A DNA stretch of 64,000 nucleotides. It comes from Candidatus Bathyarchaeota archaeon (lineage in GTDB: Archaea; Thermoproteota; Bathyarchaeia; TCS64). Positions 3,660 through 10,673 of this stretch are shown in pieces; position 1 is the first letter of the stretch, and each line of letters opens with the position of its first letter. The position numbers and the translations under genes are program-made. The notes under the pieces are model-generated. The model saw only the letters and a program-made list of their open reading frames with translations. It did no database searches and had not been told where the DNA came from. The stretch spans positions 10,710-74,709 of the forward strand of contig JADHWN010000007.1 of NCBI GenBank assembly GCA_016783455.1, given 5' to 3'.

Positions 3660-4016
3660 ATGACGATATACGAGGTTGAGACCTGGAAGGTAAAGCCCGG
3701 CAAGGAGAAGGTCCACGAGGAGGCCCTGAGGAACTGGCTCAAGTGGGTCAGCGAGCACAGGGAGCTCTTCCCGGAGTGGAAGAGCCTCAGGTACATGGTG
3801 AAGTACATCGCGGGGGAGGAGACGGAGCGCCACATGATGCTCTGGGAGTACGACAGCCTAGCTGCCTTCGAGGAGTACAAGGCGAGGAGGAAGGACTACA
3901 CGGGGGCCTACGCGGAGTACAAGAAGGTGGACCCCTACTACATGGACGTCTTCGAGCACACCACCATGAACGTGGAGGTCTGGAAGCCCCTGGACCTGGA
4001 GTTCTGGATAGAGTAG
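3660..4016 (+). CDS. Hypothetical protein (possibly a dimeric alpha/beta-barrel, NIPSNAP/ABM-like)
   Basis: 118-aa ORF with good codon bias. Family assignment is only by general resemblance. Confidence 0.45.
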   Translation: MTIYEVETWKVKPGKEKVHEEALRNWLKWVSEHRELFPEWKSLRYMVKYIAGEETERHMMLWEYDSLAAFEEYKARRKDYTGAYAEYKKVDPYYMDVFEHTTMNVEVWKPLDLEFWIE

Positions 4017-4082
4017 CCCTCCCTCCCTTTAGGCTGCTAAAGTCTCCTTATATCATGAATGGAGTGAGAAAAAGGACCGAAT

Positions 4083-5750
4083 TTACTCCTCGGACCTGAG
4101 TGCCTTGAAGATGTAGTTGATGTCCATCTCCAGAGCCGCCACGGGCATCTCCAACTCCCATCCGACGAGGACCTCGGGTCTGACCTCTCCTACCCAGCAC
4201 ATAGGCACTCCCTCATGCATTGCCGTGAACCGCCTCCCCTCTATGAAGCAGTCCCAGCCCCCCTCATTGATCTCCGCCGATATGTCGAGGTTATCAAGCA
4301 CGGCGTTGAGGACCGCCTTGGTCTCCGAGAAGTTGGCCTTCGCGTGGCACAATACGACCGCGAGGCGCCTTGAGGCCCTCGCCCCTGTCTCCGTCTCGGG
4401 GTCCAGTAGTATGACGTCGTTTATCTCGTAGAGGTTCTGGGGGTGAGGATGGTGCTTGTTGTTGGTGAGCACCTCAATGAGGCTTGGGATGAGACGGTTC
4501 CTCAGGGAGTCGTAGGCATCCATCTTGGGGTTCGACGTCTCCGCTATGGGCTCCTCGGGGATGCACATCCGGGTGAAGAGCTTCTCCCTGTTGGACATCA
4601 TGAACGTCAGGACCTCCTGGAGGCCGAAGCCCACCATGAAGTTCCTTAATCCCCTGCTGAAGACCTCCAGGGGGTCCTCCCCCGCCTGTGAGGCGATGTC
4701 AGGTATCACCGGGACGACGTTGTCGTACCCGTAGGCGATGGCGACGTCCTCGACGAGGTCCATGGGGTGCATCACGTCGGTCCGGTAGCGTGGGACATTG
4801 ACCTTGAGCGTGTCACCCGCGACCGCTCCGTGGCCCATCATCTCCAGGTACTTGGCTGACTCCTCGGGCGACAGGTCAATGCCCAGGGTCCTGATAACGT
4901 ACTCGTTCTCCACTGTCATCTCCCGGGGCTCCAGGTACGGGGTCACGATGGGCTCTCCATCATGGTACTCGTTCCTGACTGAGTAGATCTCGGCGCCCCT
5001 GTCGGCGAAGGTCGTTGTGATGATGTTGAGGGTCTCCGTGATGGCCTTCAAGTCGGTCCCCGTGATGTCGATGAATATGTCCGTGGTAGCCTCGTCGATG
5101 CGGGTGTACTCGCCGTTGATTATGGGGGGCATGCTGAGGACCATCCCCTTCGCGTCGACGATCATGGGGTACTCCTCGAAGCCCTCGACGGTCCAGGCGT
5201 ACTCCCTGCCCGTGTGCATCTCGGTGAGTATCTGGGTGAGGTCCTTCTCGAAGCGCTCCCCCAGGGGCCTGAACTTGAACTCCGGGGGCTTGGTCGTGTA
5301 CGTTATGGGGAACTCGATGGGCTCCAGGTTGTGGAGGCCGATGGCGACCTTCCGGCGCCTCCTGCCGTGGGTGACGTGGAGCTTTTCCTGCATCTGGATG
5401 ATGCTCCTGATCAGGGCGTCGTCGAAGTCGATATTCTTCACAATAGCCGTGACGAAGTAGGGTCGAACCTTCTCGACCTTCTTGTCGATGATGGCGGTCA
5501 CCCCTGACTCCTTGACGTCGTAATACCTGAATCCTGTCCTGTGTCCCATGAACGAGTCGTATGCTCTGGCGAGGCCTTCTATTGAGAGCATGTCTGGGCG
5601 GTTGGGGAATATCTGCAGCTGGAGGCTGTCTTCCGTGTTTCCCTCCCACTCTATTCCGAGCATGGGCATCCTGTCGCTTAGCTCCTCTATCGTTGCGTCT
5701 CTGCCCAGGAGCTTCCTCAAGTCCTCGATGTTTACCTCAATGACTGGCAT
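4083..5750 (-). CDS. pheT: Phenylalanine--tRNA ligase beta subunit (archaeal type)
   Basis: 555 aa; N-terminus 'MPVIEVNIEDLRKLLG', B3/4 and B5 regions; directly downstream of pheS. Confidence 0.93.
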   Translation of the reverse strand: MPVIEVNIEDLRKLLGRDATIEELSDRMPMLGIEWEGNTEDSLQLQIFPNRPDMLSIEGLARAYDSFMGHRTGFRYYDVKESGVTAIIDKKVEKVRPYFVTAIVKNIDFDDALIRSIIQMQEKLHVTHGRRRRKVAIGLHNLEPIEFPITYTTKPPEFKFRPLGERFEKDLTQILTEMHTGREYAWTVEGFEEYPMIVDAKGMVLSMPPIINGEYTRIDEATTDIFIDITGTDLKAITETLNIITTTFADRGAEIYSVRNEYHDGEPIVTPYLEPREMTVENEYVIRTLGIDLSPEESAKYLEMMGHGAVAGDTLKVNVPRYRTDVMHPMDLVEDVAIAYGYDNVVPVIPDIASQAGEDPLEVFSRGLRNFMVGFGLQEVLTFMMSNREKLFTRMCIPEEPIAETSNPKMDAYDSLRNRLIPSLIEVLTNNKHHPHPQNLYEINDVILLDPETETGARASRRLAVVLCHAKANFSETKAVLNAVLDNLDISAEINEGGWDCFIEGRRFTAMHEGVPMCWVGEVRPEVLVGWELEMPVAALEMDINYIFKALRSEE

Positions 5751-5756
5751 CGTTCA

Positions 5757-7271
5757 TCACTCCATCCAGAGCTTGGCCTTCCTTAGCAGGCCGAGGTCGT
5801 TTCCGTAGAGCTCCCCTATGCGCTCGATCCTGTAGCTCTCCATCACTAGCCGTTCGAAGCCGGGGCCCCATGCTAGGACTGGGACATCCTTCCCCAGGAG
5901 GGGCTTGACGACCTCGGGGCGGAACATTCCTGCTCCGAAGAGCTCCATCCACGCCCCTCTGCTCTCGATCCAGACCTCCGCCTCCATGCTCATCTCGGTG
6001 TAGGGGAAATAGGCTGGGCGGAACCTGAACCTCTTGATGCCGAGGCCCTCCAGGTAGGCCTTGAGGTATCCCTGCATGTTGGTGAATGTGACCCCCTCGC
6101 CGACGACGATGCCATCCGTCTGGTAGAACTCGGCTAGGTGGTTCCAGTCGATGGTCTCGTTCCTGAAGACCCTGCCGACGCTGAAGAACTTGGCGGGGAG
6201 GTCGTCCTCGGTGAGCTTGGCGATGGCGTTCACGGAGAGGCTTGTCGTGTGGGTCCTGAGGCAGTTCCTGGCGGCCATCGCCGGATCCCACTTGTACTGC
6301 CATCCGGTGGATCCGGTGGTCCAGCCGTTCTCGTGGGTCTCCTTCACCCTCTGGACCATCTCAGGGTCGGGGAGGTGGCCGCTCTCCGGGGTCTTCAGGT
6401 AGAAGGTGTCCGCTAGGTCCCTGGCTGGGTGGTCCTGGGGCTGGAAGAGGGCGTCGAAGTTCCAGAAGTTGAGCTCCAGGTACTCCCCGGTCATCTCCTT
6501 GAAGCCTAGCTCCACCCAGAAGCGGCGGATGTAGTCAATGACCTGGCTGACGAAGTGGCGCTTCCCGGGTCTAGTACTCGGAACTGAAAGAGTTACATCG
6601 TATCTTTGGAACACCGATCCTTTCCAACTTTCATTCTTAAGGATTTCTGGAGTAAGCTGTGTTATGATCTTAGAATGATCGACATTTTGTAAATATCGCA
6701 ACACAGAATGTCCGAAATTCGTTAGCATTGCTTGATTCTCGTAATAATTATTTTCTTCAATTAAGTTTCTAGATTTAAGAAAAATCAGATCATTATTTTT
6801 AATGATGTCTCTTGGAACTTCTGCATAGTTATTTTCAATTATAATCGATCTGTATTCATCAAAATAATTTATATTTTTTGAGGCATTTATTCCCTTATTA
6901 TTTATTAATATCTTATCATTCCTAATGGTTGCCCATTTATTTTTCATAATCCAAGAGATGGCTATATTAAAATTACGATATGTATTTTTCAATATACCTA
7001 CATTATTTTGATTATTTTCTATTATGTACTTTATTAAATTTATTTCAGGGAAGCCGTTTTGTAGATAGTCTATCCCTTCTTCTGTTAGCTTAATTTTTTC
7101 ATTGATTAATTGTGTTAATTTTATTACGCCTTTTGCTTCTGCCCACAAGCATGCTTTTTCTACTACATCCTTTTTAAGTTCTAATAGTTGACTAAGTTCA
7201 GTAGTTGTTGCAGGTTTATCTACCAATGATTCAACAACTAACCTTTCATAATAATGTAAACTAGCAGCCAT
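5757..7271 (-). CDS. pheS: Phenylalanine--tRNA ligase alpha subunit; the 5' third has very low G+C
   Basis: Class II core motifs (FQPQDHPARD, GRVFRNE, GAGMFRPEV). ATG at 7271 (MAASLHYYE); the track ORF starts at a TTG at 7286. Confidence 0.9.
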   Translation of the reverse strand: MAASLHYYERLVVESLVDKPATTTELSQLLELKKDVVEKACLWAEAKGVIKLTQLINEKIKLTEEGIDYLQNGFPEINLIKYIIENNQNNVGILKNTYRNFNIAISWIMKNKWATIRNDKILINNKGINASKNINYFDEYRSIIIENNYAEVPRDIIKNNDLIFLKSRNLIEENNYYENQAMLTNFGHSVLRYLQNVDHSKIITQLTPEILKNESWKGSVFQRYDVTLSVPSTRPGKRHFVSQVIDYIRRFWVELGFKEMTGEYLELNFWNFDALFQPQDHPARDLADTFYLKTPESGHLPDPEMVQRVKETHENGWTTGSTGWQYKWDPAMAARNCLRTHTTSLSVNAIAKLTEDDLPAKFFSVGRVFRNETIDWNHLAEFYQTDGIVVGEGVTFTNMQGYLKAYLEGLGIKRFRFRPAYFPYTEMSMEAEVWIESRGAWMELFGAGMFRPEVVKPLLGKDVPVLAWGPGFERLVMESYRIERIGELYGNDLGLLRKAKLWME

Positions 7272-7295
7272 TCTTTCAGGGAGCAAACCCTCACC

Positions 7296-7356
7296 AACCT
7301 ACCAATACAGGCTTGTGGCTCGTCTTAAAAATCATACTGGATGAATTTGGCGGGCC
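7296..7356. repeat. Direct repeat copy R1 (61 nt), contains the pheS promoter-like region
   Basis: 50 of 61 positions identical to 8334..8394 by hand alignment. Confidence 0.75.
7324..7332 (-). promoter_or_regulatory. TATA-like box (ATTTTTAAG) upstream of pheS
   Basis: About 53 nt upstream of the ATG at 7271. A GGTGAG Shine-Dalgarno-like element lies between them. Confidence 0.4.
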
Positions 7357-7365
7357 AAGGGCTCA

Positions 7366-7373
7366 CGCGCGCG
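7366..7373. repeat. (CG)4 tract
   Basis: CGCGCGCG in an AT-rich spacer, abutting the hairpin 7374..7403. Confidence 0.9.
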
Positions 7374-7403
7374 ATGGGAAGTAATTATTCCATAACTTCC
7401 CAT
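7374..7403 (-). terminator. Perfect 9-bp stem hairpin downstream of the aldolase gene
   Basis: ATGGGAAGT (7374-7382) pairs with ACTTCCCAT (7395-7403), 12-nt loop, 7 nt after the stop at 7410. Confidence 0.5.
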
Positions 7404-7409
7404 TTGGTC

Positions 7410-8087
7410 TTATCTTTTAATCGTCGCTAGACCGTTATTAATACCAGCGGTAGCCCATCTATTCCATGGCAGGGTAAAGAACTTAAATCCCCTCTCGACG
7501 AAGCCACTAGGGTCTTGACCTCCAGGGATGAAATACATTCCAGGGATAACTCCGGCATTATTGCAGGCGTCTACTATCTTATCCAGTGTTTCTTGATACT
7601 TGGGGTTATGATAATCCAACGTGATATCCAACGCGATTGAAAGGTCTGAAGGACCTACTAGGAGAACGTCAACCCCAGGAACTGAAAGGATCTCATCAAG
7701 ATTACTCAACGCCTTCATCGTTTCCACCATGGGAATAATCAGTAACTCCTCATTGACCGCAGACATCTGTTCACGGAAGTTCTCAAATTCTCCCCACTCA
7801 CCTCTCGGCCCAGCAGCGCTCCTGATCCCATCAGGCGGATATTTGCAGCAACGGACCATGTGAGAAGCTTCCTCTTTCGAGTTGACCATGGGCACTATAA
7901 TACCCCTGGCGCCGATATCGAGTGCGTAGCAGATTTGATCTTGGTCGTTCGCCCCTACTCGAACGATGGGGCTAGCTCTTTTCCCTTTCATGGCTCGGAT
8001 CTGATGCTGCAACTCCTTGATCCCCACAGGCGAGTGCTGAGTATCAAAGAGAATAAAATCAAATCCTGCATCAGCTAAAAACTCCAC
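7410..8087 (-). CDS. HpcH/HpaI-family 2-keto-3-deoxy-acid aldolase; 5' end apparently disrupted
   Basis: 'FLADAGFDFILFDTQHSP', 'IVRV', 'GIIVPMV' and 'ETMKAL' match the family. The frame stays open to 8156 with family-like residues (KKAGKTAIGTTASIKSP) but no start codon. The ATG at 8158-8160 is in another frame. Confidence 0.75.
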   Translation of the reverse strand: MEFLADAGFDFILFDTQHSPVGIKELQHQIRAMKGKRASPIVRVGANDQDQICYALDIGARGIIVPMVNSKEEASHMVRCCKYPPDGIRSAAGPRGEWGEFENFREQMSAVNEELLIIPMVETMKALSNLDEILSVPGVDVLLVGPSDLSIALDITLDYHNPKYQETLDKIVDACNNAGVIPGMYFIPGGQDPSGFVERGFKFFTLPWNRWATAGINNGLATIKR

Positions 8088-8290
8088 AGGGCTTTTTATA
8101 GAAGCAGTCGTTCCAATGGCGGTTTTACCCGCTTTTTTACATATCCTTAACGATGTTCATATTCAATAAACCTCAAAAGATTAGTTATCTTTCAATGTTT
8201 ATTACAGTTTGTCTTGCACACTATTTTCTCTTGAGGATAAAATCTTTGATTTTGTTTTTAAGTAAAGTTTTCTTGTTGAAATATTCGATT

Positions 8291-8298
8291 GCGCGCGC
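8291..8298. repeat. (GC)4 tract
   Basis: GCGCGCGC in the AT-rich spacer upstream of the aldolase gene. Confidence 0.9.
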
Positions 8299-8333
8299 TG
8301 TACTACAAGTAATAATTCTTGGTGGTTACAGCG

Positions 8334-8394
8334 AACCTACCATTAGAGGCAAGTGGCTCATCTTAAAAATAATACCGGATGAACATGTCGAGCC
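8334..8394. repeat. Direct repeat copy R2 (61 nt)
   Basis: Matches 7296..7356, including the CTTAAAAAT and GGATGAA blocks. Confidence 0.75.
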
Positions 8395-8427
8395 TGTATA
8401 TGGGGAGTAAAAAGAGGTTAGAGGTGT

Positions 8428-8817
8428 CTACTCCTTTACCCTGGGCTCCGAGACTATCTGGATGGTGTTGCCCTCTGAGTCTTTGATGTAGAAGTAGGTG
8501 ACTATCCCCGGGAGGTCAGTGTACTCCGTGGTCTCCACCCCCTTCCCCTCCAGGTAGGCCTTGGTCCCCTCGATGTCGTCCACCTCCATCATCATTCTCC
8601 CGAACTCAGGAGAGTGTTCCCCCTCACCGAGGTTGAGTCCGAGCCTGGGGGCTCCCCCGGGGAGCTGCATCTCGCACCAGCCCACCTCCGGGGGAGGTGC
8701 GAAGACCACGTCTAGGTTGAGTACGTCGGAGTAGAACCTCTTGGCCCGCTCCATGTCCTTGACGTTGATCTGGAAGTACATCGTGCTGACCTTCATCGGG
8801 TGTTCGCTCTTTGGCAT
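8428..8817 (-). CDS. Glyoxalase/VOC-family protein
   Basis: 'MYFQINVKDMERAKRFYSDVLNL' VOC N-terminus. Start is uncertain (8817 or 8796; the track ORF runs to 8874). Confidence 0.75.
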   Translation of the reverse strand: MPKSEHPMKVSTMYFQINVKDMERAKRFYSDVLNLDVVFAPPPEVGWCEMQLPGGAPRLGLNLGEGEHSPEFGRMMMEVDDIEGTKAYLEGKGVETTEYTDLPGIVTYFYIKDSEGNTIQIVSEPRVKE

Positions 8818-8916
8818 GGTTAACAAAGAAATTCGGAGGCTACAAAAGGGTTTTGACGGTTGATGAGTCCGCATATTGTTATATCCATTCAGCAGCTAGT
8901 ACGATGAGGTATCAAC

Positions 8917-9267
8917 ATGAAGATCGTGAAGCGTGAGGACGCCCCGACGCTGGAGACCGTGAAGGGGAGGAAGGGGGAGATCCTGATGGCCGGGGAGAAG
9001 TGCATGATGATGATCAACACCATCGAGCCCGGTGTGCCCACACCCCCCCACAGCCACCCCCACGAGCAGATCGGCTTCCTCATCGAGGGCAAGGGGATAC
9101 TCTACATCGACGGCGAGACCAGGGAGATGGAGGCCCAGGCATCGTTCTTGGTGCCAGGGGGCGCGGCCCACAATTTCGACGCCACCGGGGACAAGCCCGC
9201 CGTACTCATCGAGGCCTTCGCTCCCCCCAGGGAAGACTACCTGGAGCGGGTCAAGAGCGAGGGCTAG
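8917..9267 (+). CDS. Cupin-domain protein
   Basis: 116 aa, 'PPHSHPHEQIGFLIEG' cupin motif 1 and 'GAAHNF' motif 2. Confidence 0.8.
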   Translation: MKIVKREDAPTLETVKGRKGEILMAGEKCMMMINTIEPGVPTPPHSHPHEQIGFLIEGKGILYIDGETREMEAQASFLVPGGAAHNFDATGDKPAVLIEAFAPPREDYLERVKSEG

Positions 9268-9302
9268 CGTCCCAGGGAACGCTTAGATCCCCCTTTCTCT
9301 GA

Positions 9303-10673
9303 TCAGAAGTAGTCGGTCATCTTCCTCTGCTGGAGTGTGTGCCTGAGGAGGTAACCCGCCTGCAGCCACTGCTCCAGGGGGATGCTTAGCCTGCCCATCA
9401 CCCTCTCCAGGGCCTCCCCCAAAGTGTCGTAGGCCAGGGGCGGCTGGCGCATCGCGTTCCTCACGTTCTCCCGGACCTGCCAGACCCCAACCGGCAGTAT
9501 ATAGTCGGGGTAGGCCTCCCTGAGGATGAAGACCTTGGCCTGGCGCCGGACCTTGGTGAGGTGCTCCAGGACGGCGAGCCTACCCGCGTAGTAGCAGCCC
9601 CCCATGGAGGCGTACTTGCTCCGGCTGTTGTAGCCCTCCCAGTCGGTGACTATGGAGACATGAGTCTCAGAGGGGTTCCACAGGGTGCGGGGGTACCACG
9701 CCTCGTAGGCCTCGTAGCACCAGGCGTCGGGGACGAGGAGGACCTCGAACCTGTTCCCTAAGTAGTCCGACTCGTAGACCTCGTAGTGGTTGACGAGGGG
9801 GTAGTCCTTGGTCCTGTTGGCGAGGACCTTGGAGACGATGTCGTCCACAGCCGTGATGCTCCACCGGGTGGGCACCAGCCTCCTATTCCTCTCGACGCCG
9901 AAGCTCCCCATGCTGAAGGCCTTCTGGATCTGGGTCACCGGGACCCCCTCCTCGTGGAGGCTGATGGTCGCGGGGGCGGCCTTGAGGTCGGTGTCGTAGT
10001 GGGCCTTCTCCATGTCCCTGTTCCACCTGATGTAGCCGATCTCGATCTTGTCCAGGGGGGCGTTGGGCCCTATCGGCTGGACATCGGCGTCCACCCTGAA
10101 GCTCCTCCGGGGGGGCTTGTGGAGCTTCATCTCGGTCTCCACGTAGTGCTCAGCCAGGGCGAGCTCCCTGGTCCGGTCGAGGACGCGCCCCGCCCTCTCC
10201 GGCTTATGGACGTTCACCCTGTACATGCCCCTGACGAGCTGGGCCCTGTAATCGATGATCTCGTCTATGGACCTCCCTAGCCACTGCTCGGGTGAGTCGA
10301 GGATTGACGTGTCGCCGTAGTAATTAGGGGCCAGGGGGCCGATGTTGACGTAGGGATAGCCGAATCGCCCCACGAAGACGCTGGGGGGCGAGGATCCGTC
10401 GACGGTGAGGCCCTTGATGCTCCTCCAGATCTTGTAGTGGGAGCTCGCGCGGGCGATGACGGGGCAGCTGGTCTTCCCGCAGAGCATCTTGGAGCCCTTG
10501 CAGATGGCGCAGAGGGAGCCGCTGGGAGCCTGCATCCTGAGGTAGTCCGATGTGAAGTCCAGATTTGCACCCATGTTGGGGTCCGTGGACGTCAGGTCGC
10601 GGATCCAGAGGTTACTGGCCTTGACCCGTTTGGCTATCCTCTTTGGCAACTTCGGTATCAGGTTCCCCTGCAC
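9303..10673 (-). CDS. nre: Archaeal Nre-family protein (DUF650/DUF651, putative DNA repair)
   Basis: 456 aa, N-terminal Cys cluster (CAICKGSKMLCGKTSCP) and conserved 'PTRWSITAVDD'. GTG start. Confidence 0.7.
   Translation of the reverse strand: MQGNLIPKLPKRIAKRVKASNLWIRDLTSTDPNMGANLDFTSDYLRMQAPSGSLCAICKGSKMLCGKTSCPVIARASSHYKIWRSIKGLTVDGSSPPSVFVGRFGYPYVNIGPLAPNYYGDTSILDSPEQWLGRSIDEIIDYRAQLVRGMYRVNVHKPERAGRVLDRTRELALAEHYVETEMKLHKPPRRSFRVDADVQPIGPNAPLDKIEIGYIRWNRDMEKAHYDTDLKAAPATISLHEEGVPVTQIQKAFSMGSFGVERNRRLVPTRWSITAVDDIVSKVLANRTKDYPLVNHYEVYESDYLGNRFEVLLVPDAWCYEAYEAWYPRTLWNPSETHVSIVTDWEGYNSRSKYASMGGCYYAGRLAVLEHLTKVRRQAKVFILREAYPDYILPVGVWQVRENVRNAMRQPPLAYDTLGEALERVMGRLSIPLEQWLQAGYLLRHTLQQRKMTDYF

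What the first reader, a model, noticed from the sequence alone, without database searches (positions are those of the whole stretch)
6571..7286. pheS is an in-frame compositional chimera: a very low-GC N-terminal extension fused to a host-like catalytic core
The 509-aa PheS ORF is uninterrupted, yet G+C drops abruptly near nt 6570. Hand counts give 34/60 G+C at 6481-6540 and 15/60 at 6781-6840. The switch lies just upstream of the class II core (PGKRHFVSQVIDYIRRFWVELGF). That is the boundary between the archaeal N-terminal extension (N/I/K-rich: IIENNQNNVGILKNTYRNFNIAISW) and the catalytic domain. The low-GC stretch continues through the spacer and the next gene to about 8427. A domain-level replacement in an essential aminoacyl-tRNA synthetase by DNA from a low-GC donor would be unusual. 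The trivial alternative is an assembly chimera that happens to stay in frame.
Basis: partly seen in the sequence, partly recalled or inferred. Interest (0 to 1): 0.6.

Follow-up and report, generated by a model that had tools for sequence, protein, structure and literature searches.

The report
AT-rich swapped front domain in pheS
The only phenylalanyl-tRNA synthetase alpha gene found in this uncultured archaeon is a genuine natural patchwork: exactly the 720 bases that encode its tRNA-holding front domain were replaced by a very AT-rich, highly diverged version, while its closest relatives keep the normal one and the donor remains unknown.

Summary
pheS (5757-7286, minus strand) switches from GC 0.62 / GC3 0.89 in the catalytic core to GC 0.29 / GC3 0.24 in codons 1-237. 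It is the only real intragenic switch in this MAG, and the only outlier among 57 pheS genes of the order.

It is not a misassembly. One independently built 2.6-kb contig crosses both GC borders with no mismatch, at the depth of the flanks. A run from another study holds exact pieces of the AT-rich block.

Two close relatives (G004, L024) share the flanks at 93-100% nucleotide identity but carry a normal high-GC N-terminus. The swapped block is therefore exactly 6570-7289, from just behind the ribosome-binding site to codon 237.

The aldolase gene and spacers upstream are not part of the swap. They are native to the genus and form a different compositional class.

The AT-rich domain is intact, conserved at key positions and folds like the PheRS alpha N-terminal extension. 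In trees it sits inside the same archaeal order on a very long branch, and no public sequence is more than 40% identical. It is therefore a domain-sized allele replacement from an unsampled AT-rich source, not from a distant phylum.

Earlier notes of this scan, not checked here, report similar AT-rich cassettes in bacterial synthetase genes.

The parts
5757..7286 (-). pheS, alpha subunit of archaeal-type phenylalanyl-tRNA synthetase, 509 aa, TTG start at 7286-7284
   Evidence: ORF. Pfam tRNA-synt_2d, E 4.4e-76, residues 229-503. Collinear with 11 relatives.
6570..7289 (-). Swapped AT-rich block: 3 nt of leader plus codons 1-237, encoding the three winged-helix N-terminal domains. GC 0.29, GC3 0.24.
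   Evidence: Nucleotide identity to G004 falls from 0.88-0.98 to 0.24-0.66 exactly between GGTGAG| and |CCCGGGAA, then returns to 0.94-1.0. The same is seen against L024. Codon usage correlates at r=0.82 with the MAG's AT-rich island genes and at r=-0.55 with the core.
5757..6569 (-). Native catalytic core of pheS, GC 0.62, GC3 0.89
   Evidence: 90% aa identity to same-genus G002. 94-100% nt identity to G004 and 97-100% to L024. Sister to G002 in the core tree, 99% support.
7290..7356 (-). Native pheS promoter and leader, repeat copy B: TATA-like TTTTTAAGA, then GGTAGGTTGGTGAG
   Evidence: 94.6% identical over 56 nt to the promoter of L024. The same motif lies upstream of pheS in family relatives. 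About 88% identical to G004.
8334..8394 (-). Second copy of the pheS promoter (repeat copy A), not followed by pheS codons
   Evidence: Direct repeat D1, 82% over 61 nt. 88% identical to the L024 promoter.
7410..8087 (-). HpcH/HpaI-family aldolase gene between the two promoter copies. Native to the genus and not part of the swap.
   Evidence: Pfam HpcH_HpaI, E 2.1e-35. 96% aa identity in G004, where it also lies directly upstream of pheS. It forms a compositional class of its own.
4083..5750 (-). pheT, beta subunit, immediately downstream of pheS
   Evidence: Pfam B1, B3_4, B5 and tRNA_synthFbeta.
6046..6063 (-). One copy of an exact 18-nt repeat (encodes KAYLEG) inside the pheS core
   Evidence: Repeat D8, 100% identity. 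It is the crossover point of the pheS/glyoxalase mosaic on contig C58.
8546..8563 (-). Second copy of the 18-nt repeat, inside the glyoxalase-family gene (8428-8874)

Best explanation
This is a real, working mosaic pheS. In the recent ancestry of this strain, recombination replaced exactly the part of the gene that encodes the N-terminal tRNA-binding extension (window 6570-7289; three winged-helix domains, codons 1-237). The incoming version is a very diverged, AT-rich allele of the same domain. The two crossover points lie in the only well conserved sequences on either side: the ribosome-binding leader, and the first block of the class II core.

The native promoter, the catalytic core and pheT were kept. 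The enzyme therefore still assembles and charges tRNA-Phe, but with a foreign tRNA-holding module written in rare codons.

The incoming allele descends from a PheS of the same archaeal order. It must have spent a long time in an AT-rich replicon. The most likely source is the AT-rich mobile gene pool that also supplied the roughly 20 low-GC islands of this genome.

Shown: the mosaic structure, its borders, the polymorphism among close relatives, the intact frame and the conserved fold. Inferred: the recombination mechanism, the mobile-DNA source and retained activity.
For: 1. Borders. G004 (same genus) and L024 (NCBI MAG contig) match the window at 88-100% nucleotide identity up to GGTGAG (7290) and from CCCGGGAA (6569) onward. 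Between these points identity is only 24-66%. Both relatives encode a high-GC N-terminus that is about 39% identical in protein.

2. Not an assembly artefact. Run X1 gives a Logan contig of 2637 nt that covers 6439-9075 with 0 differences, at depth 31 against 36-38 in the flanks. Run X2 gives contigs covering 6541-7395 and 7366-9075. Run X6, from another study, gives 0-difference pieces at 6902-7064 and 8280-8612. Contigs of co-occurring relatives leave the window at 6566/6569 and read on as the native type (..VTLPVPSLHP..DVSLPVPGVR).

3. Uniqueness. The GC3 difference is 0.65, against 0.22 or less in 56 other species of the order. It is the top intragenic switch in the MAG.

4. Ancestry. In the core tree the gene is sister to G002 (99% support, branch 0.04). 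In the N-terminus tree it lies inside the order clade (100% support against AT-rich outgroups), next to G015/P0008, on a branch of 1.33-1.36 against 0.2-0.6 for relatives.

5. Function kept. There are 0 in-frame stops (P about 2e-10). 28 of 34 columns invariant in the order are retained, and 54 of 78 columns that are at least 80% conserved. The AlphaFold2 model has pLDDT 89 with three helix-helix-helix-hairpin units. The only significant PDB match is human PheRS alpha, 3L4G_C, E 4.7e-7.

6. Source pool. Codon usage correlates at r=0.82 and tetranucleotide usage at r=0.90 with ORFs of the MAG's other AT-rich islands.

7. pheS 5' DNA does move in this lineage. Contig C58 carries a native-type pheS promoter with codons 1-46 and 43-57, a core fragment and a glyoxalase tail. 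They form a circularly permuted 2.46-kb insert next to head-tail virus genes.
Against: No donor was found. Nothing is more than 40% identical in any of these: 1.84 billion cluster representatives; 5.8 billion 90% clusters (word-limited search); JGI metagenomes; GTDB genomes; IMG/VR; plasmids; phages.

A donor that is AT-rich throughout would share little sequence with the recipient at the crossover points. Collinear, in-frame joins at both ends therefore need either microhomology plus selection, or a donor that already carried host-like flanks.

Placement of the N-terminus within family f1 is weakly supported (69-85%). An unfinished site-heterogeneous run placed it at the base of the order.

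Only contigs were laid on the window, not raw reads. X1 and X2 may be the source samples. X6 does not bridge 6570.

The MAG is 75% complete, so a second pheS copy cannot be excluded. Activity of the enzyme is untested.
Confidence: 0.72

Rival explanations
1. Runaway divergence in place. A local mutational process biased from G:C to A:T, or relaxed selection, rewrote the N-terminal domain within this lineage without any transfer.
For: The N-terminus groups with its own order and family, not with a foreign group. At positions conserved in relatives, A and T are kept at 84-85%. G and C are kept at only 46-49% and mostly change to A or T, with about twice as many transitions as transversions. No donor exists in any database searched.
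Against: Flanks differ from G004 and L024 by 0-7% while the block differs by 35-75%, and both borders are sharp to within a base or two. A mutational process would have to stop exactly at the leader and at codon 237, because synonymous sites of the core (GC3 0.89) are untouched right up to the border. Many changes are transversions, and some run from A/T to G/C. No reverse transcriptase for a diversity-generating retroelement was found in the MAG, which is 75% complete. None of 56 other species shows even a partial version.
Confidence: 0.1
2. Transfer from a phylogenetically distant low-GC organism (another class or phylum) by illegitimate recombination.
For: GC of 0.29 lies below any pheS seen in the order; the lowest are G016 and G068 at 0.34-0.38. 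Identity to all order members is uniformly low at 31-40%. The unfinished C20 tree placed it at the base of the order.
Against: Identity to class-level and more distant AT-rich PheS proteins is lower still, at 19-24%. The LG+F+G4 tree keeps it inside the order with 100% support, although shared composition should pull it toward the AT-rich outgroups. It is collinear with family members, with a single one-residue indel in the 12-sequence alignment.
Confidence: 0.1
3. Footprint of a site-specific integrative element that targets pheS and carries its own copy of the 5' part of the gene. The rest of the element was later deleted.
For: Two promoter copies lie 1038 nt apart, and copy A is followed abruptly by AT-rich DNA. 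pheS 5' fragments lie beside provirus genes on C58.
Against: No integrase, and no att-like repeat at 6570, lies between pheT and the Nre gene. The promoter next to the AT-rich block is the native one (94.6% to L024). G004 has the same aldolase-promoter arrangement with a native N-terminus, so the promoter duplication predates the swap and is separate from it. The C58 insert joins at microhomologies, not at recombinase sites.
Confidence: 0.05
4. Assembly chimera that happens to stay in frame.
For: The genome is an 83-contig MAG with 4.9% estimated contamination. Related strains co-occur in the same samples, and the pheS core is fragmented in the assembly graphs.
Against: A single unitig-based contig from an independent assembler crosses both GC borders with 0 mismatches, at the depth of the flanks. 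A run from a different study holds exact pieces of the block. A chimera would need two joins, both in frame and collinear, at positions where a 29%-GC and a 62%-GC sequence share 31-mers.
Confidence: 0.03

Closest known systems
Aminoacyl-tRNA synthetase homeoalleles (TyrRS, ThrRS, SerRS, LeuRS; Andam, Gogarten and co-workers; PMC3191353, PMC3436685)
   Same: Two very divergent forms of the same synthetase function are exchanged within a group of related organisms. The replacement can occur by homologous recombination in conserved flanks, so that synteny is kept.
   Different: There, whole genes are exchanged, the crossovers lie in neighbouring genes, and both forms are widespread. Here only one domain (720 nt) is exchanged, with crossovers inside the gene and its leader. 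The second form is known from a single population, and its GC differs from the rest of the gene by about 33 points.
Mosaic core genes made by recombination with distant relatives: 'novel allelic replacement' detected as dS outliers in marine bacteria (PMC9426536); penA/pbp-type mosaics (from general knowledge)
   Same: A sharply bounded block of foreign ancestry sits inside an otherwise native chromosomal gene. Synonymous divergence is extreme in the block only.
   Different: In those cases donors are usually identifiable sister species with similar composition. Here the donor is unsampled, the block is compositionally alien, and its borders coincide with a domain boundary in an essential archaeal synthetase.
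N-terminal extension of archaeal/eukaryotic PheRS alpha: three DNA-binding-fold domains (human cytosolic PheRS, PDB 3L4G; review PMC3275996)
   Same: The swapped block encodes this module. The model shows three winged-helix-like units, and the best PDB match is 3L4G chain C.
   Different: Only 17% sequence identity to the human protein. The relative arrangement of the domains is not well superposed (TM 0.40). The role in tRNA-Phe binding is taken from the literature and not tested here.
AT-rich in-frame cassettes in bacterial synthetase genes noted earlier in this scan (alaS, hisS and several aaRS of a candidate phylum; ids e1-5269852, e1-3302627, e1-3871844, e1-4449985)
   Same: Sharply bounded, in-frame, AT-rich and unusually divergent segments in essential synthetase genes of GC-rich uncultured organisms. 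They often cover the tRNA-recognition part (AI notes, not checked here).
   Different: Those are bacterial, and several show many alternative cassettes among relatives. This one is archaeal, is a whole N-terminal module that includes the start codon, and occurs in 1 of 57 sampled species of its order.

Membership tests
Archaeal/eukaryotic-type PheRS alpha subunit (PheS) | Class II catalytic core of the PheRS alpha type | tested here: met
   Pfam PF01409, E 4.4e-76, well above the cut-off. 77-90% identity to relatives.
Archaeal/eukaryotic-type PheRS alpha subunit (PheS) | N-terminal extension of three DNA-binding-fold domains | tested here: met
   Collinear alignment with relatives. AlphaFold2 pLDDT 89 with three wHTH-like units. 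Best PDB match 3L4G_C. The model leans on the relatives' alignment.
Archaeal/eukaryotic-type PheRS alpha subunit (PheS) | Paired with a beta subunit gene (pheT) | tested here: met
   pheT lies at 4083-5750, 6 nt downstream, with the B1, B3_4, B5 and CLM domains.
Archaeal/eukaryotic-type PheRS alpha subunit (PheS) | Charges tRNA-Phe | not testable with these tools
   Inferred only, from the intact frame and the conserved residues.
Mosaic gene / sub-genic homeoallele made by recombination | Flanks near-identical to close relatives while the block is highly divergent, with sharp breakpoints | tested here: met
   G004: 0.88-0.98, then 0.24-0.66, then 0.94-1.0. L024: promoter 94.6%, core 97-100%.
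Mosaic gene / sub-genic homeoallele made by recombination | Different phylogenetic placement of block and flanks | tested here: inconclusive
   The core is sister to G002 (99%). The N-terminus is not with its genus, but lies on a very long branch with weak placement inside the order.
Mosaic gene / sub-genic homeoallele made by recombination | An identifiable donor lineage, or a second carrier of the allele | tested here: not met
   Nothing above 40% identity in any collection searched.
Integrative element that rebuilds the end of its target gene | Integrase and flanking att repeats next to the rebuilt gene end | tested here: not met
   No integrase among the ORFs at 3660-10673. The only flanking repeat is the promoter duplication, which G004 shares at least in part together with a native N-terminus.
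Diversity-generating retroelement target | Reverse transcriptase and template repeat; adenine-specific changes | tested here: not met
   No PF00078 match in the MAG (75% complete). No template repeat of the block within 5700-9000. Changes affect all four bases.

The most novel reading that the evidence does not exclude
The tRNA-binding modules appended to essential synthetases may form a hidden class of exchangeable cassettes. AT-rich copies would be kept and moved by viruses or other mobile DNA, and swapped into host genes at domain borders. The drive could be conflict with virus- or toxin-encoded factors that target the synthetase-tRNA interface. On this reading, the Bathyarchaeia pheS is the first archaeal case. 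The provirus-adjacent pheS fragments on C58 would show the shuttle step: a circle excised at the 18-nt repeat and re-inserted by microhomology.
Probability: 0.15. Interest if true: 0.75.

Novelty: new variant of a known kind. Interest (0 to 1): 0.55.

Why it matters
Synthetases are textbook cases of whole-gene transfer, but replacement of a single domain within a species is rarely documented, and I know of no archaeal example. Here the event is caught cleanly. The flanks are 93-100% identical to relatives that keep the old domain. The borders are resolved to the base. The GC contrast is 33 points, and the enzyme has to work with a foreign tRNA-holding module in rare codons.

The case gives a natural experiment on how modular the PheRS alpha extension is. 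It also shows that an AT-rich gene pool invisible to current databases can reach the core translation genes of Bathyarchaeia. Together with the similar bacterial cases noted earlier in this scan, it suggests a general and testable pattern. For MAG users it is a reminder that a sharp intragenic GC break need not be a misassembly.

Tried and rejected
Donor searches with residues 1-235 all failed to find anything closer than 38-40% identity. These were: the word-indexed 5.8-billion-protein search (only the window's own protein and P0004 at 38%); the exhaustive 1.84-billion representative search (best 39%); JGI metagenome contigs, GTDB genome contigs and IMG/VR (no confirmed relative); plasmids and phages by tblastn (no match); and all 79 genomes of the order (40% or less).

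P0004's contig could not be fetched because the sample file was too large.

Rfam on 5000-10000 gave no match, and no tRNA lies near the locus. The 61-nt repeat is therefore not a tRNA-derived att site.

Pure deaminase-type hypermutation was considered. It was rejected because transversions make up about a third of the G/C-to-A/T changes.

A diversity-generating retroelement was considered. No reverse transcriptase was found.

The other high-scoring 'intragenic GC3 switches' that I translated were stop-to-stop ORFs running out of frame through GC-rich DNA.

Contig breaks inside pheS occur in 7 of about 27 relatives' MAGs. They looked like a hint of a population-level hotspot, but the rate fits the mean contig length and the break points are scattered.

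The low-GC family members G016 and G068 were tested as donors. Their N-termini are no closer, at 34-36%.

Run X15 (another study) showed no cover over 6708-7259 at 90% likeness or more, while covering the flanks and the aldolase. This is recorded here only, because missing contig cover is not evidence.

Its unfinished topology (N-terminus at the base of the order) is quoted only as a caveat.

The ScaI and SmaI sites at the 3' border, and GCGCGCG upstream of the promoter, were noted and judged coincidental. G004 has the same CCCGGG and GCGCGCG.
Full report
THE OBSERVATION

pheS is the 509-codon ORF at 5757-7286 on the minus strand, followed 6 nt downstream by pheT at 4083-5750.

GC is 0.619 in the core (5757-6570) and 0.295 in 6571-7286. 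GC3 is 0.89 against 0.17-0.26.

The switch is not a chance fluctuation.
- In the whole 2.19-Mb, 83-contig MAG (GC 0.575), pheS has the largest two-segment GC3 difference of any ORF of 250 aa or more.
- Seven of the larger lower-ranked candidates, when translated, were out-of-frame stop-to-stop artefacts.
- Among 57 pheS genes of the same order, the GC3 difference is 0.65 here and 0.00-0.22 in the others.

IS IT AN ASSEMBLY ERROR?

Contigs built independently (Logan) from public runs were laid on 4500-10000.
- Run X1 gives one 2637-nt contig covering 6439-9075 with no difference. It crosses both the 6570 border and the return to high GC near 8427. Its depth is 31.4, against 35.7 and 37.7 for the flanking contigs.
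- Run X2 gives contigs covering 6541-7395 and 7366-9075.
- Run X6, an estuary metagenome from another study, holds 0-difference pieces inside the AT-rich block (6902-7064) and across 8427 (8280-8612), at low depth.
- Contigs of co-occurring relatives follow the core up to 6566/6569 and then read on with sequence that translates to the normal N-terminus.

A chimera would need two in-frame, collinear joins between a 29%-GC and a 62%-GC sequence. I rate this at about 3%.

Caveats: only contigs, not raw reads, could be laid. X1 and X2 may be the source samples.

WHAT EXACTLY WAS REPLACED?

Two close relatives fix the borders.

G004 is a same-genus species representative. Its contig L016 carries the same aldolase (96% aa identity), the same hairpin and GCGCGCG, the same promoter, and then pheS. 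Nucleotide identity to the window is 0.88-0.98 over 8220-7321. It is 0.24-0.66 over 7270-6571, and 0.94-1.0 from 6570 to 6121.

L024 is a contig of NCBI MAG GCA_013202225.1. Its promoter is 94.6% identical and its core start 97-100% identical, again with a high-GC N-terminus (P0008) that is 38.6% identical in protein.

Identity ends right after the GGTGAG of the leader (7290) and resumes at CCCGGGAA (6569). The swapped block is therefore 6570-7289: 720 nt comprising three leader bases, the TTG start and codons 1-237.

WHAT IS NOT PART OF THE SWAP

That does not hold.
- The aldolase-promoter-pheS arrangement is shared with G004, which has a native N-terminus.
- The aldolase has a codon usage of its own (r about 0.2 with both the host genes and the AT-rich block).
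- The 61-nt direct repeat (7296-7356 and 8334-8394) is the conserved pheS promoter and leader. The same TTTTTAAGA ... GGTAGGTTGGTGAG motif precedes pheS in family relatives. Copy B, next to pheS, is the native one. Copy A is an older duplicate that is no longer followed by pheS codons.
- In most relatives the gene upstream of pheS is the Nre homologue found here at 9303-10673. The cupin, glyoxalase and aldolase genes are therefore earlier insertions into a variable spot.

IS THE AT-RICH DOMAIN ALIVE?

- The frame is open: 0 stops against 11-36 in the other frames, with a chance expectation of about 2e-10.
- 28 of the 34 columns invariant across 18 order-level relatives are kept, as are 54 of the 78 columns that are at least 80% conserved.
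- The domain aligns with relatives along its whole length, with a single one-residue indel.
- An AlphaFold2 model built with 25 relatives has mean pLDDT 89.4 and three winged-helix-like units. Its only significant PDB match is human cytosolic PheRS alpha, 3L4G chain C.
- The literature describes this extension as three DNA-binding-fold domains linked to the archaeal/eukaryotic mode of tRNA-Phe binding (PMC3275996).

I infer a functional domain under purifying selection. Activity itself was not tested.

WHERE DID IT COME FROM?

No database holds a close relative. The best identity is 38-40%, and the best hits are ordinary PheS proteins of the same family.

Trees give a split picture.
- The core is sister to same-genus G002 (99% support, branch 0.04).
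- The N-terminus sits inside the order clade, which is separated from AT-rich outgroups with 100% support. It lies next to G015/P0008 (69-85% support) on a branch of 1.33-1.36 substitutions per site. Relatives have 0.2-0.6.
- Shared AT-driven amino-acid bias should pull it toward the AT-rich outgroups. Its staying within the order therefore argues for an origin in this order.
- An unfinished site-heterogeneous run placed it at the base of the order, so placement inside the family is not secure.

Low-GC family members exist (G016 and G068, GC 0.34-0.38), but they are no closer.

The block's codon usage (r=0.82) and tetranucleotide usage (r=0.90) match the ORFs of the MAG's other AT-rich islands. 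There are about 20 such islands, mostly carrying orphan genes.

MECHANISM

The flanks are near-identical to relatives, the borders are sharp, and synonymous sites of the core are untouched up to the border. These facts point to a recombination tract rather than a mutational process.

I tested the alternatives.
- At conserved positions, G and C mostly become A or T, with about 2:1 transitions to transversions. This does not fit a pure deaminase signature.
- No reverse transcriptase is present for a diversity-generating retroelement.
- No integrase or att repeat lies at the locus.

One difficulty remains. A donor that is AT-rich throughout would offer little homology at the crossover points. So either the donor already had host-like ends, meaning the allele has circulated within related populations, or the joins used microhomology in the two conserved motifs and selection kept the in-frame product.

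A RELATED OBSERVATION ON CONTIG C58 OF THE SAME MAG

A small zinc-ribbon gene, intact as a 103-codon ORF in G066 (L084:979-1290), is split on C58 by a 2.46-kb insert (C58:40199-42655). Read along the minus strand, the insert holds:
- native-type pheS codons 43-57 (93% identical to L024);
- pheS core codons of about 383-414 (91.6% identical to window 6140-6046);
- the glyoxalase C-terminus (89% identical to 8563-8428);
- 2 kb of AT-rich cargo;
- the native pheS promoter with codons 1-46 (92.9% identical to L024).

The pheS-to-glyoxalase join lies in the exact 18-nt repeat that also exists in the window (6046-6063 and 8546-8563). The outer joins share a TCGAGA microhomology.

This order is what one expects from a circle that looped out of a pheS locus between the 18-nt repeats and re-inserted by microhomology. 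The insert lies 2.2 kb from a large terminase gene. Portal, scaffold and tail-tube homologues follow further along the contig.

The pieces differ by 7-11% from the C5 locus, so they came from a related lineage. This shows that the 5' region of pheS does travel in this group and that microhomology joins occur. It does not show that the AT-rich allele travelled the same way.

COMPARISON WITH WHAT IS KNOWN

The closest concept is the synthetase homeoallele: divergent forms of one synthetase exchanged within a group, sometimes by recombination in conserved flanks (PMC3191353). Also close are mosaic core genes arising from 'novel allelic replacement' (PMC9426536).

The differences here are several:
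- the unit is a single domain;
- the crossovers lie inside the gene and its leader;
- the compositional contrast is extreme;
- the organism is an archaeon;
- the second allele has no known relative.

Earlier notes of this scan report AT-rich in-frame cassettes in bacterial alaS, hisS and other synthetase genes (not checked by me). If these hold, this finding is the archaeal counterpart of a wider pattern.

The assignment of the genome to Bathyarchaeia comes from earlier scan notes and was not tested here.

VERDICT

The feature is real. The domain replacement holds. The single foreign block reaching 8427 does not, and a donor from a foreign lineage is not supported.

It is a new variant of a known kind. 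Interest is 0.55.

Noticed in passing
L033:6200-8903 (= G000 contig C58:40199-42902): A small zinc-ribbon gene, intact as 103 codons in G066 (L084:979-1290), is split by a 2.46-kb circularly permuted insert. The insert holds native-type pheS codons 43-57, a pheS core fragment, a glyoxalase C-terminus, 2 kb of AT-rich cargo (DUF6345 and an orphan ORF) and the pheS promoter with codons 1-46. The joins lie at a TCGAGA microhomology and at the 18-nt KAYLEG repeat. It looks like a circle excised from a relative's pheS locus and then re-inserted.
   Followed up: yes
L033:10904-12424 and L034:3561-11376 (C58:44903-61376): Head-tail virus genes at host-like GC: large terminase, portal, scaffold, a weak capsid hit, tail tube and a beta-helix protein. 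AT-rich islands flank them at C58:39.6-44.8 kb and 62.5-66 kb. Probably a provirus. A diverged second copy of the terminase region (about 80% nt identity) lies on contig C50.
   Followed up: partly
window 8133-8138: The aldolase frame has no start codon upstream of the GTG at 8087. G004 and contigs of run X15 have one base fewer in the A-run at 8133-8138. G000 therefore carries a 1-nt difference near the 5' end of the gene (frameshift or shortened start). X1 and X2 agree with the window.
   Followed up: partly
window 6046-6063 and 8546-8563: An exact 18-nt direct repeat, 2500 nt apart, encodes KAYLEG in both the pheS core and the glyoxalase-family gene. It could loop out the whole 5' half of pheS together with its upstream region.
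   Followed up: partly
window 7366-7400: A hairpin (GGAAGT ... ACTTCC) followed by GCGCGCG lies just downstream of the aldolase stop and is conserved in G004. It is probably the aldolase terminator. A similar GCGCGCGC lies at 8291-8298.
   Followed up: no
G000 contigs C63:7601-11500, C58:62501-65900, C16:14701-15700, C81:1201-2200, C50:4501-5600, C25:15301-16700: About 20 AT-rich islands (GC 0.22-0.35) hold orphan ORFs. These include a radical-SAM protein with a CxxxCxxC motif (C16:14753-15604) and an 856-aa orphan. By eye they look defence-like, but none was scanned against a family library. Several contigs begin in such islands, so the islands break the assembly.
   Followed up: no
L021 (G016:C100), L058 (G068:C81) versus L005 (G007) and L079 (G070): Within one genus (g4), pheS GC ranges from 0.34-0.38 to 0.63-0.67, uniformly along each gene. 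This is an unusually wide compositional spread for a single genus.
   Followed up: no
window 9303-10673, and upstream of pheS in L005, L007, L009-L012: In most relatives the Nre-family gene lies directly upstream of pheS. In G000 three genes (cupin, glyoxalase, aldolase) sit between them, and in G002 the neighbourhood is different again. The spot upstream of pheS is therefore a variable insertion site.
   Followed up: partly
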